Program-made: the position numbers | Source of the DNA: Escherichia coli | Lineage (GTDB): Bacteria; Pseudomonadota; Gammaproteobacteria; Enterobacterales; Enterobacteriaceae | Assembly: GCF_030013205.1 (NCBI RefSeq) | Contig: NZ_CP122648.1 | Direction: 5' to 3' (one strand) | DNA: 64,000 nucleotides | Shown here: positions 6,001-9,000 of the stretch, in pieces | How the letters are laid out: every line of letters begins with the position of its first letter | Numbering within the stretch: the first letter of the stretch is position 1

Positions 6001-9000
6001 CAGAAAAATGCAGAGAACAACGCTCGTTATATCGCTGCATTTAATCCTGCGGTTGTACTGGCATTGCTCGATGTATTGGACGCATCGCTGGATGTGAAGC
6101 CTGTAGCGTCATGCATTGTTGAAGATGGGGGTATGTGTGTTGACGGGTTCAGTGAGTATGTTGGTCACTCGCTGCCTGATGGGATGCATGAGCTTTATGC
6201 TGCCCCGCCAGCGTCGGTAGTGCCGGAAGGACTAGTTAAAGCAGTGCGTTTCTATGAACAGGTAAAGTGTGAGAATCCGCCAGTCGAAACCGGAGCATGG
6301 AAAAACGCGGTTGACTGGGTGCTCAACGAGGCTTGCCAGGCTGTAAACATTGGCATCAAAGGAGCGTGAGATGAATGGACAAATATCAATTGTTCGACCG
6401 GGAGCATGTGACGATTGCGAGATACGAATGATTATTCGTCTGGCGAGGGGGAAAACAATAACTGCTCTCATTACTCCTGAAAATCTCGCATTAGCATTAA
6501 CAGGAAAGTCAGACCTGCCAGTAGAGCTAAAGCTGCGAAATATTGAGATTAAAGTGAAATAGTTATGAATACTCTTACCAAAGAATGGTTACAGAACACG
6601 ATTACCGGAATTGAGTCGATAATAGACGATAAATCGTTTGTATGTAGTGAAATAGCATTCGAAATAGGTCAGGTTAACAACATACTTACCGCATTTAAAA
6701 TTGCACTGGCATCGCTGGCAGCAGTATCGGATGAACGGGCAGCCTATGAATTATTTATGGAGAAGCGTTTCGGGGAATCTGTAGATCGCCGCAGGGCAAA
6801 AAATGGTGATAGAGAATACATGGCATGGGATATGGCGCTTGGCTGGATTATCTGGTGTCACCGCGCCGCCATGCTTCAGGGAGGCCAACCTGTAAACCAA
6901 ACTTACAACTTGCCAGAATTAATCGAAGGCATGGAAGTTTCCATTGATGTTAGCACTTGTGATGCTGATTTAGGTAATCGCTATTTCGGCACCGTCACCG
7001 AGGCGTTAGAACTTGATACAGCCAAGAATGGTTACATCCTCCTGGTTCAGGACGCAGAGCCTAACTTCGATGTAAATGGCAACTCTCCGGGAACTCCGGA
7101 TAGTTGGATAAGCTGTAGTGATCAAATGCCTGAAAAGGGCCAGAACGTGCTTATTTCGGTGAATTTCGATAGCTCTCTGGTTGAACCGCTAATATGCTCC
7201 GCACGCTATACCGGAAGCACCTTTCGGCGCGGAGATGCAACGATTAAGCCGGGTAATGGTATTGAGCAAGCAACTCACTGGATGCCGCTACCGGAACCGC
7301 CGCAGGAGGTGAAGTGATGAACAACTTAATGATCGACCTTGAGACGATGGGGAAAAATAAGGATGCACCGATCGTTTCCATTGGCGCGGTGTTCTTCACT
7401 CCAGAAACCGGAGACATCGGACAAGAATTCTATACGGTTGTTAGCCTGGAAAGTGCTATGGGGCAAGGAGCTACACCTGACGGCGATACCATCCTGTGGT
7501 GGTTGAAACAAAGCCCTGAAGCACGAGCTGCAATCTGTATTGATGATACTTTGTCGATCAGCGATGCTCTCTCAGAACTAAATCATTTCATTAACCGGCA
7601 CGCAGCCAATACGAAATATTTAAAAGTCTGGGGTAACGGGGCCACCTTCGACAACGTAATTTTACGTGGAGCTTATGAGCGAGCAGGACAAATCTGCCCT
7701 TGGGCATACTGGAATGACCACGATGTACGCACGATCGTTACGCTTGGGCGTTCCATCGGATTCGACCCCAAAATGGACATGCCTTTCGATGGCGAACGGC
7801 ACAACGCCCTGGCCGATGCCCGTCATCAGGCAAAATATGTTTCCGCTATCTGGCAGAAATTAATTCCTGCCACCAGCACAGAATTATGATTTTCCCGGGT
7901 GCAGCCGGTTTTGATGGAGAAAATTATGAACACCTTGTTTTTACTGATGGCTGAATTCAATACCCCTAACATTGAACTCTCAGCAGTTAGCCAAAAGTAC
8001 TTTGGCATGAGTCCAGCCACGGCAGAAGCAAAAGCAAACGCTTGTAAGTTGCCCGTTCCAACATATCGCATCGGCACATCACAAAAAGCAAAACGTTGCA
8101 TCAATATTCAGGATCTTGCGGAATACATAGACAAAAGACGAGAAGAAGGACGTATCGAGTGGGAACAGGTCAGAACAAGCAAACAGAAGGGCAAAGAACA
8201 TCACTAAAGAAAAAACCCGCCTAAAGCGGGTTTTCAAAAAGCACCAGCTATGATCATGCTGCTTTGCGACGACGAAGCTTACCCTGCTGCTCTTTACCAG
8301 AGACAGTAGCGTGAGTGAACGCATTAGGAGCAGCCTTCATCAGAACTTCAACAGCAGCACCCATACCTGCGAATGCTTTCATTGTGTCGAACTTAACCTG
8401 TGGCTTGGTTGCTTTTTGATCTTCCATAGAAAACTCCAGAAGCTATACCGAAACAATTCCTGTTGTTTACTCATCATCAATAGATGATACGCAATATTTA
8501 TTTTTAAATTTAAGGTTCTTTGGCGTAACTTCATCAGATATATCAAAACCGTCCAGAATTCTATTGAATGTAGCTTCTGGCATATCATCATGAACGGAAA
8601 TCTCACCCGATCGCTGCTTTCTAACCATGTTATCCACTCGCCAAATTATAGCTTCAGCGTAAACAACATAACTTGGATGCTTGATAAAGCGATGATCACC
8701 AGAATTCAAGACGCAAGACGGATCGTGGGGGACACCATCCTTGATACTAGAAATATTAACAACTAAAACACAATAACAATCGTTAACGGGGTAATAAACA
8801 GGATCATTACAAATCACATGAAGATGATTGCATGGCCCAGTTGGGGCAAGCACAGTTCCTTTCCTGTATGGCTGATAATCCGTCATGATAATTGCAAAGA
8901 AAATTCCTTAAGTTTCTGAGATTCTTCCATTTTGCCAATTATACGATTAGCCTCATCCTCGCTTTTACCCTCACTGATCAGCATTTCTTTCAGGTCTATA

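What the first reader, a model, noticed from the sequence alone, without database searches (positions are those of the whole stretch)
8467..8886. 139-aa Cys/His-rich protein with no recognisable family, the putative toxin or effector
The protein has clustered Cys/His residues (GPCNHLHVICNDP, CYC, HDPSC), an acidic C-terminus and no transmembrane segment I can see. I cannot match it to any toxin family I know (RelE/ParE, MazF, HipA, Fic/Doc, Zeta, toxSAS, HEPN). Its R-x3-H spacing in DHRFIKH does not fit the canonical HEPN Rx4-6H motif. If it is the cognate partner of the Panacea-like protein it would be a new toxin domain, plausibly metal-dependent.
Basis: inference. Interest (0 to 1): 0.75.

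Follow-up and report, generated by a model that had tools for sequence, protein, structure and literature searches.

The report
MazF-fold toxin of a prophage PanAT module
The 139-aa protein is very probably the toxin half of a prophage toxin-antitoxin pair, but it is not a new toxin domain: it has the fold of MazF-type toxins and belongs to a Panacea-associated toxin family that has already been described and validated in Pseudomonas.

Summary
The ORF at 8467-8886 (-) is real. Its ATG overlaps the stop codon of the upstream 190-aa gene (ATGA). That upstream gene is a genuine Panacea/SocA antitoxin (Pfam PF13274, E=3e-18).

It is 36% identical (E=2e-29) to the PanA-linked toxin of Pseudomonas reinekei. 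Its closest AFDB relatives come from organisms listed in toxin cluster "T6" of Kurata et al. 2022. The P. moraviensis member of T6 was shown to be a PanA-neutralised, PanA-binding translation inhibitor with HHpred similarity to MazF/PemK.

Only H21, C58 and H65 of the twelve Cys/His residues are conserved across the family, together with D55, S72 and Y76. Most of the "Cys/His cluster" is therefore lineage-specific, and metal dependence remains unsupported.

The module is AT-rich cargo lying between the excisionase-like gene and the dusA attachment junction. In other E. coli strains this slot holds other PanAT or YafO modules.

Verdict: a new member of a known kind, of modest interest.

The parts
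8467..8886 (-). panT: 139-aa toxin with a MazF/Kid-like fold, in the Panacea-associated toxin family 'T6'
8883..9455 (-). panA: 190-aa stand-alone Panacea (SocA/DUF4065) antitoxin
   Evidence: Pfam PF13274, E=3.1e-18, residues 27-137; RefSeq name 'Panacea domain-containing protein' WP_000458583.1; 42% identity, E=8e-41 to P. reinekei PanA
8883..8886 (-). ATGA stop/start overlap, suggesting translational coupling of panA and panT
   Evidence: Sequence; the same junction occurs in all homologous loci that have upstream DNA
9464..9467 (-). GAGG Shine-Dalgarno, 8 nt upstream of the panA ATG
   Evidence: Read from the sequence
9582..9610 (-). Sigma-70-like promoter candidate (TTGACC-17-TAAACT) in the 250-bp leader. 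Weak evidence only.
   Evidence: Consensus scan, 9 of 12 matches; the number of such sites in the region is not above the shuffled expectation
9709..9813 (-). Displaced 5' fragment of dusA, marking the prophage/chromosome junction. The module is the outermost prophage cargo.
   Evidence: RefSeq annotates an 'incomplete tRNA-dihydrouridine synthase' at the equivalent position; sequence
8254..8427 (-). orf57, a small same-strand ORF downstream of panT. It belongs to the prophage backbone and is not a conserved part of the module.
   Evidence: phrog_2741, E=8e-36; absent next to PanAT in other lineages; 98% identical in an O157:H7 prophage that lacks PanAT
8211..8235 (.). GC-rich hairpin with T-runs between the convergent orf57 and the xis-like gene; the likely operon terminator
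   Evidence: Terminator scan
7899..8207 (+). Excisionase-like gene (PrtN family) that forms the inner border of the cargo slot
   Evidence: phrog_1300 excisionase, E=8e-40; RefSeq 'pyocin activator PrtN family protein'

Best explanation
The 139-aa protein is PanT, the toxin of a two-gene PanA-PanT type II toxin-antitoxin module carried as cargo by a dusA-integrating temperate phage of E. coli. panA (Panacea antitoxin) and panT are co-transcribed from the short leader next to the attachment junction and are translationally coupled through an ATGA overlap.

PanT folds into the MazF/Kid/CcdB-type beta-barrel with C-terminal helices. By homology to the validated P. moraviensis member of the same family (T6), free PanT arrests growth by blocking protein synthesis. 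The most likely mechanism is sequence-specific, metal-independent RNA cleavage, as in MazF/Kid.

I infer that the invariant H21 at the start of strand beta2 sits where MazF has its catalytic Arg29. I also infer that the conserved S/T pair 46-47 at the end of beta3 sits where MazF has Thr52-Thr53.

PanA neutralises PanT by direct binding. Release of PanT would cause growth arrest, serving abortive infection or prophage maintenance. Possible triggers are superinfecting phage, or loss or proteolysis of PanA.

Shown here: gene structure, Panacea partner, fold, family membership, synteny and the cargo position. Shown elsewhere for a homologue: toxicity, neutralisation, complex formation and translation inhibition. 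Inferred: RNase chemistry, roles of individual residues, the trigger and any defence role.
For: Partner and operon:
- The upstream gene is Panacea.
- The ATGA overlap is present.

Fold:
- AF2 model pLDDT 90.7, pTM 0.84.
- The Foldseek PDB top 40 are all MazF, prob 0.9-1.0.

Family membership:
- 36% identity, E=2e-29 to the toxin downstream of the P. reinekei PanA that carries the MIFSEQKVAQ N-terminus.
- The P. reinekei BS3776 protein lies in the same 90% cluster.
- AFDB neighbours with TM 0.8-0.9 come from P. reinekei, Gilliamella intestini, Beggiatoa alba, Malikia spinosa, Rhodanobacter denitrificans, Neorhizobium galegae and Avibacterium paragallinarum. All of these organisms are listed in toxin cluster T6 of Kurata 2022 Dataset S1.
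- Several of those neighbours are named 'PemK/MazF family toxin'.

Experimental data on a family member (PMC8832971): the T6 member from P. moraviensis is toxic, is neutralised by PanA, co-purifies with PanA, specifically inhibits 35S-Met incorporation, and matches EndoA/PemK/MazF by HHpred.

Synteny: a Panacea gene abuts the toxin start in Proteus, Pseudomonas, other enterobacterial phages and two distant metagenomic members.

Integrity: all family-conserved residues are intact in the window protein.

Complex: a PanA-linker-PanT fusion model gives pTM 0.83 with a disordered linker and a well-ordered PanA C-terminal region.

Cargo status:
- Module GC is 39-43%, against 47% for the prophage and 50% for the chromosome.
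- In other strains the same slot holds other TA modules, including the PanA (WP_000287252.1) of the validated E. coli membrane-toxin PanAT (Table 1).
Against: - No sequence-level link to MazF could be reproduced here. Pfam PemK matched none of 102 members. A family HMM found no MazF in PDB sequences. hhalign against a thin 5-sequence MazF profile gave probability 0.3%.
- The canonical MazF G-x-E-Q-x-G-x-R-P loop and catalytic Arg are absent. The conserved set H21/D55/C58/H65/S72/Y76 is not the MazF or Kid catalytic set, so the chemistry and target may differ.
- Fold alone does not separate an RNase from a CcdB-like gyrase poison.
- I never saw the P. moraviensis toxin sequence itself. The link runs through the paper's own T6 clustering and its listed organisms.
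- Neither protein hits a PADLOC defence model.
- No experiment exists for this E. coli pair.
Confidence: 0.7

Rival explanations
1. A toxin on a MazF-like scaffold with different, possibly metal-dependent chemistry. H21, D55, C58 and H65 would form a His2-Asp-Cys metal site or a Cys/His/Asp catalytic centre. The target would be something other than simple mRNA cleavage, for example modification or cleavage of a translation factor or tRNA.
For: H21 is invariant, and D55, C58 and H65 are at 97-98% across 128 sequences no more than ~50% identical to each other. They lie in or next to the loop 48-71 that replaces the MazF S3-S5 'wing'. The canonical MazF Arg-Pro motif is missing. Profile methods do not connect the family to MazF.
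Against: Characterised MazF/Kid/ToxN-fold toxins are metal-independent RNases (established knowledge). C58 and H65 sit in register with the conserved hydrophobic residues L60 and F67, so they may be buried structural residues (inference). Translation inhibition by the P. moraviensis member is equally consistent with an RNase.
Confidence: 0.15
2. A CcdB-like poison of DNA gyrase, or of another non-RNA target, that shares the CcdB/MazF fold.
Against: Ten MazF/Kid structures score higher than CcdB, and the Foldseek list is all MazF. The validated family member inhibits translation specifically, not thymidine incorporation (PMC8832971).
Confidence: 0.06
3. Not a toxin in this phage. It would be a degenerate or repurposed MazF-fold protein, such as a regulator or RNA-binding factor, that merely travels with a Panacea gene.
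For: No experiment has been done on this E. coli pair. Kurata and the NetFlax study report predicted pairs that showed no toxicity in E. coli.
Against: All family-conserved residues are retained. The protein is identical in dozens of prophages and in two deposited phages. The strict antitoxin-toxin overlap is conserved from 36% to 100% identity, with co-divergence of both partners. The slot holds other TA modules in sister prophages.
Confidence: 0.07

Closest known systems
PanAT toxin cluster T6 of Kurata et al. 2022 (PNAS 119:e2102212119); validated representative Pseudomonas moraviensis PanT WP_083201923.1 / PanA WP_083354365.1
   Same: Stand-alone Panacea antitoxin upstream. Antitoxin-toxin order with a -1/-4 overlap. 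Toxin of about 130-140 aa with a MazF/PemK-like fold. 36-44% identity to the Pseudomonas members I could retrieve. The PanA N-terminus is near-identical (MF/IxxEKVAQMAA...).
   Different: This is the enterobacterial prophage branch. It has extra Cys/His residues (C19, H23, C26, C37, C39) and an acidic C-terminal tail. It lies in a dusA-phage cargo slot. This member is untested experimentally, and the P. moraviensis sequence itself was not seen here.
MazF / Kid(PemK) / EndoA endoribonuclease toxins (Pfam PF02452, CcdB/MazF superfamily)
   Different: Sequence identity is only 8-16%, with no Pfam or profile match. The beta1-beta2 hairpin is short instead of the long G-x-E-Q-x-G loop. There is no Arg-Pro catalytic motif, and His21 is invariant in its place. 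The 48-71 loop is distinct and highly conserved (D55, C58, G63, H65, F67). There are two extra C-terminal helices. The antitoxin is Panacea rather than MazE/Kis.
E. coli STEC O31 PanAT (PanT WP_000019185.1 / PanA WP_000287252.1; membrane-depolarising toxin, Kurata 2022)
   Same: It occupies the same prophage slot between the excisionase-like gene and the dusA junction in strain GF4. It is a Panacea antitoxin followed by a toxin.
   Different: The toxin is unrelated, with a transmembrane segment. The two PanA proteins share only a weak local similarity in the Panacea domain (31% over 26 residues, E=0.004).
CcdB gyrase poison
   Different: Lower structural score than MazF. The family's validated member targets translation.

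Membership tests
PanAT (Panacea-associated type II TA), toxin cluster T6 | Adjacent partner carries the Panacea/SocA domain (PF13274) | tested here: met
   PF13274, E=3.1e-18, residues 27-137 of the 190-aa protein
PanAT (Panacea-associated type II TA), toxin cluster T6 | Antitoxin-then-toxin bicistron with a small overlap or gap, conserved across lineages | tested here: met
   ATGA overlap. PanA ends at the toxin start in every locus that has upstream DNA, spanning 36-100% toxin identity.
PanAT (Panacea-associated type II TA), toxin cluster T6 | Sequence homology of the toxin to listed T6 members | tested here: met
   36% identity, E=2e-29 to the P. reinekei toxin. AFDB neighbours come from seven organisms in the T6 list. 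Accession-level identity to the paper's entries was not verifiable.
PanAT (Panacea-associated type II TA), toxin cluster T6 | Toxin is growth-inhibitory and is neutralised by cognate PanA | not testable with these tools
   Shown only for the P. moraviensis member (PMC8832971)
PanAT (Panacea-associated type II TA), toxin cluster T6 | Direct PanA:PanT complex | tested here: inconclusive
   The fused PanA-linker-PanT AF2 model has pTM 0.83 with a disordered linker, but no PAE or interface metrics were available. Pull-down was shown for the P. moraviensis pair.
MazF/Kid/PemK endoribonucleases | MazF/CcdB-type SH3-like barrel fold | tested here: met
MazF/Kid/PemK endoribonucleases | Match to the Pfam PemK_toxin profile or other sequence-profile similarity to MazF | tested here: not met
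   0 of 102 family members match. The family HMM finds no MazF among PDB sequences. hhalign against a 5-sequence MazF alignment gives prob 0.3% (thin profile). Kurata reports an HHpred match for the P. moraviensis member, and some distant relatives are named PemK-like in UniProt.
MazF/Kid/PemK endoribonucleases | Catalytic Arg (EcMazF R29, in an R-P motif after a long beta1-beta2 loop) and Thr/Ser (T52) | tested here: not met
   There is no conserved Arg or R-P motif. The hairpin is short, and the invariant His21 occupies the analogous sequence position. S/T at 46-47 is conserved. Equivalence was judged by secondary-structure order only.
MazF/Kid/PemK endoribonucleases | Metal-independent endoribonuclease activity | not testable with these tools
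   Requires biochemistry
   Across 128 diverse sequences, C19, H23, C26, C37, C39, H54 and C132 vary. Only H21, C58 and H65 are conserved, at 98%. A H21/D55/C58/H65 site cannot be excluded without coordinates.
HEPN RNases | Rx4-6H motif in an all-alpha fold | tested here: not met
   R66 is Pro in 59% of members. The model is beta-rich.
Known anti-phage defence systems (PADLOC-DB v2) | Match to a defence-system protein model | tested here: not met
   No hits for either protein

The most novel reading that the evidence does not exclude
The T6 PanT family, including this E. coli prophage protein, is a MazF-fold toxin that has replaced the canonical Arg/Thr RNase centre. In its place is an invariant His21...Asp55-x2-Cys58...His65 constellation that binds a metal or performs different chemistry on a different translation-related target. 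That would be a mechanistically new branch of the MazF/CcdB superfamily. It would sit in a prophage cargo slot where it acts as an abortive-infection defence.
Probability: 0.2. Interest if true: 0.55.

Novelty: new member of a known kind. Interest (0 to 1): 0.3.

Why it matters
The gene is annotated 'hypothetical' in RefSeq, GenBank phage records and UniProt, and has no Pfam, NCBIfam or PADLOC model. Yet the full module is present in 204 of 5426 complete E. coli genomes and in at least two deposited phage genomes. Assigning it to the validated PanAT T6 family gives it a testable function. It also corrects the likely RefSeq start codon.

The surrounding slot, between the excisionase-like gene and the dusA attachment junction, exchanges different TA modules between sister prophages. 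Three different Panacea-toxin pairs occupy it in different strains. This is a compact natural illustration of Panacea partner swapping, and a convenient place to test whether these modules act as phage-defence cargo.

The family's conserved His/Asp/Cys/His set, which differs from MazF's catalytic residues, is an open biochemical question.

Tried and rejected
- **Sequence libraries for the toxin.** Pfam, NCBIfam, PADLOC and PDB sequences by phmmer and by family HMM all gave nothing significant. The only hits were noise (ICMT, DapC).
- **Profile-profile comparison.** hhalign of the 102-sequence family alignment against a 5-sequence MazF/Kid/EndoA/ChpBK alignment was negative (prob 0.3%). The MazF profile was thin, so this is weak negative evidence.
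- **Retrieving the P. moraviensis toxin itself.** I scanned genome contigs with a back-translation of the published PanA N-terminus. It returned P. reinekei, P. sp. NFIX28 and P. atacamensis but not P. moraviensis. Cluster look-ups did not show the accession either. The paper's supplement does not list our accessions, but the file was truncated when stored.
- **A Pfam-annotated bridging member.** None of the 120 listed hits of the profile search carried a precomputed Pfam domain.
- **orf57 (8254-8427) as a third component.** Rejected. It is absent beside PanAT in other lineages and present in an O157:H7 prophage without PanAT.
- **A Cys/His zinc cluster as proposed.** Rejected for most residues on conservation grounds.
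- **HEPN.** Rejected on motif and fold.
- **Promoter prediction.** One 9/12 match lies in the leader, but the count of such sites in the region is no higher than in shuffles.
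Full report
**1. Observation**

It has six Cys (positions 19, 26, 37, 39, 58, 132), six His (21, 23, 54, 65, 70, 99) and the acidic tail SSIDDE.

Its ATG overlaps the stop codon of the upstream 190-aa ORF 8883..9455, giving ATGA.

RefSeq annotates the same gene as a 128-aa hypothetical protein starting at GTG 8853. It annotates the upstream gene as a 'Panacea domain-containing protein'. The longer ATG start is better supported:
- Residues 1-11 are conserved in homologues: M1, P6 and T11 in at least 90%, and G10 invariant.
- The first beta-strand of the model spans residues 10-16.
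- UniProt A0A192CFB7 and the GenBank record of phage Lys8385Vzw both use 139 aa.

**2. What sequence methods say**

The toxin has no significant match in Pfam, NCBIfam, PADLOC or PDB sequences. It matches only PHROG 19071, a family of unknown function (E=3e-31). So 'no recognisable family' is a fair description at the level of sequence libraries.

The partner is a bona fide Panacea protein (PF13274, E=3.1e-18, residues 27-137).

The toxin family itself is large:
- 62 clusters at 47-100% identity, in Enterobacterales, Vibrio and Shewanella.
- 2717 representative clusters at E<=1e-3, and 934 at E<=1e-10, with a family profile.

**3. Fold**

An AlphaFold2 model built on 44 homologues is confident (mean pLDDT 90.7, pTM 0.84). 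It is a beta-rich core followed by three helices.
- Foldseek against the PDB returns MazF structures almost exclusively (prob 0.9-1.0, TM 0.45-0.6).

The protein therefore has the MazF/Kid/CcdB toxin fold.

**4. Link to a described, validated family**

Kurata et al. 2022 (PMC8832971) catalogued toxins associated with Panacea antitoxins. Their cluster T6 contains the Pseudomonas moraviensis PanT. According to the paper, this protein:
- is toxic in E. coli and is neutralised by its PanA;
- co-purifies with its PanA;
- specifically inhibits 35S-methionine incorporation;
- has no CDD hit but is similar to EndoA/PemK/MazF RNases by HHpred.

The paper's Dataset S1 lists T6 pairs in antitoxin|toxin order with -1/-4 overlaps. 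They span Proteobacteria (including Proteus, Pantoea, Photorhabdus and Pluralibacter), Cyanobacteria, Spirochaetes and others.

The paper also notes that the P. moraviensis PanA begins MIFSEQKVAQ. Ours begins MFCEEKVAQ. I scanned species-representative genomes with a back-translation of that peptide. It retrieved P. reinekei, Pseudomonas sp. NFIX28 and P. atacamensis.

In each of these three genomes, the PanA gene is followed by an overlapping or directly abutting ORF of 132-134 aa. Our toxin is 36% identical to the P. reinekei one over 125 residues (E=2e-29). The two PanA proteins are 42% identical (E=8e-41). The P. reinekei BS3776 protein, from a strain listed in T6, falls in the same 90% cluster.

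Independently, the closest AFDB50 structures (TM 0.8-0.9) come from organisms that all appear in the T6 list. These are P. reinekei, Gilliamella intestini, Beggiatoa alba B18LD, Malikia spinosa, Rhodanobacter denitrificans, Neorhizobium galegae HAMBI 1141 and Avibacterium paragallinarum. Several of these proteins carry the names 'PemK-like protein' or 'PemK/MazF family toxin'.

One caveat applies. I never saw the P. moraviensis sequence itself. Membership rests on the paper's clustering plus these matches.

**5. Synteny**

Every related locus that includes DNA upstream of the toxin has a Panacea gene ending at the toxin's start codon:
- Proteus prophages, 63% toxin identity, PF13274 upstream.
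- Fifteen enterobacterial phage contigs, 71-76% identity.
- The three Pseudomonas genomes.
- Two distant metagenomic members at roughly 35-39% identity.

Toxin and antitoxin co-diverge: 71-76% with 71-73%, 63% with 46%, and 36-44% with 37-42%.

The surroundings differ from locus to locus. Examples are major tail to tape measure, tail fibre, antiterminator Q to holin and next to cro. This is the behaviour of a mobile two-gene moron.

**6. Which residues matter**

Across 128 sequences that are mutually no more than about 50% identical, the following are conserved:
- H21 (98-100%), L22, D55 (97%), C58 (98%), G63, H65 (98%), F67, S72, Y76, G113 and S117.
- Positions 46-47, which are nearly always S/T.

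The following vary:
- C19, C37, C39 and C132 are variable.
- H23 is F/H/Y.
- C26 is L/C/M.
- H54 is Y/H/F.
- R66 is mostly Pro.

Most of the 'Cys/His cluster' is therefore specific to the enterobacterial branch. The specific motifs offered as a metal site do not hold up.

What remains is a conserved H...D-x2-C...H set that differs from the MazF (R29, T52) and Kid (R73, D75, H17) catalytic residues. Those MazF and Kid residues are cited from my own knowledge of the families.

By order of secondary-structure elements, H21 lies at the start of beta2, where MazF has R29. S46/S47 lie at the end of beta3, where MazF has T52/T53. A thin-profile hhalign against MazF was negative.

**7. Local context**

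The window covers the last ~9.7 kb of a prophage (yfdP-yfdS-like genes, exonuclease, excisionase-like PrtN-family gene). Beyond it lie a displaced 5' fragment of dusA (9709-9813), yjbM, zur, yjbJ, dinF and lexA. The module is the outermost cargo.
- panA starts 250 bp from the junction, with a GAGG Shine-Dalgarno 8 nt upstream and one weak promoter-like site.
- A hairpin terminator follows the small downstream ORF.
- In the circular genome of the deposited phage Lys8385Vzw, the order is integrase, ~450-bp intergenic region, panA, panT, orf57, xis-like gene, exonuclease.
- GC content is 38.6% for panT and 43.1% for panA. The rest of the prophage is 47.2% and the chromosome 50.4%.

The full segment is present in 204 of 5426 complete E. 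coli genomes. The flanks occur in 741.

In sister prophages the same slot carries other cargo:
- PanA WP_000287252.1, which is the antitoxin accession of the validated E. coli membrane-toxin PanAT in Kurata's Table 1, plus a 182-aa protein with a hydrophobic segment.
- A third Panacea protein plus a 153-aa protein. That protein weakly matches the family profile through the C..DHxF..S.V motif (15.6 bits).
- A YafO-family toxin plus a 179-aa protein.
- In O157:H7, a single 177-aa hypothetical protein.

The slot is thus a cargo hotspot that is repeatedly filled by TA-type modules.

**8. Mechanism**

The best-supported model is a type II PanAT module. PanA binds and neutralises a MazF-fold toxin that blocks translation, probably by RNA cleavage. 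Release of the toxin causes growth arrest, plausibly serving abortive infection or prophage maintenance.

A fused PanA-linker-PanT AlphaFold model gives pTM 0.83 despite a disordered linker. The PanA C-terminal region, including helix 166-190, is well ordered. This is compatible with a defined complex, but without interface metrics it is soft evidence.

Three rivals remain:
- Different, possibly metal-dependent chemistry on the MazF scaffold (about 0.15).
- CcdB-like gyrase poisoning (about 0.06).
- A non-toxic role (about 0.07).

**9. Verdict**

The inference that this is the toxin partner of the Panacea protein is supported. The claims of a new toxin domain and of a Cys/His metal cluster are not.

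It is a new, unannotated member of a known and experimentally validated family (PanAT T6, MazF/PemK-like). Residual novelty lies in the uncharacterised chemistry of the family's conserved His/Asp/Cys/His set and in the untested biological role of the prophage cargo slot.

Noticed in passing
window 7899-9813; loci L094-L097: The slot between the excisionase-like gene and the dusA junction is a cargo hotspot in this prophage family. Different E. coli strains carry three different Panacea+toxin pairs here, one with the PanA accession of the validated E. coli membrane-toxin PanAT. Others carry a YafO-family toxin pair, or (O157:H7) a 177-aa hypothetical protein.
   Followed up: partly
window 8853 vs 8886: RefSeq (WP_014640052.1) starts the toxin at GTG 8853, giving 128 aa. 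This would remove conserved N-terminal residues and part of strand beta1. ATG 8886, which overlaps the panA stop, is the better start and is the one used by UniProt and GenBank phage records.
   Followed up: yes
window 8254-8427 (-): A 57-aa ORF with a Lys/Arg-rich C-terminus (phrog_2741, unknown function) lies directly downstream of panT on the same strand. It is 98% identical in an O157:H7 prophage that lacks PanAT and is absent beside PanAT elsewhere. It is therefore a backbone gene that may be co-transcribed.
   Followed up: partly
L095 633-1094 (E. coli PigCaeca_2): The 153-aa partner of a different Panacea protein in the same slot weakly matches the T6 family profile (15.6 bits) through the C..DHxF..S.V motif. 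It may be a very divergent relative of the same toxin family.
   Followed up: partly
Kurata 2022 Dataset S1 and AFDB hits: Several Pasteurellaceae members of this toxin family are named 'terminase' in NCBI and UniProt (Avibacterium, Glaesserella, Histophilus, Haemophilus). This looks like a propagated misannotation.
   Followed up: no
L006-L009 (Proteus/Providencia prophages): The homologous PanAT sits next to tail-fibre genes. The neighbouring gene varies between a UPF0167 protein and an Abi_2 (PF07751) protein, which suggests another variable cargo or defence slot.
   Followed up: no
window 9709-9813 (-): A displaced 5' fragment of dusA marks the integration site, so this is a dusA-integrating temperate phage. 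Identical modules occur in the deposited phages SKA5 and Lys8385Vzw.
   Followed up: partly
L001 11873-12570 vs window ~11150-11390: Strain AR_0085 has an IS1B insertion between yjbM (DUF2713) and zur. The window lacks this insertion.
   Followed up: no
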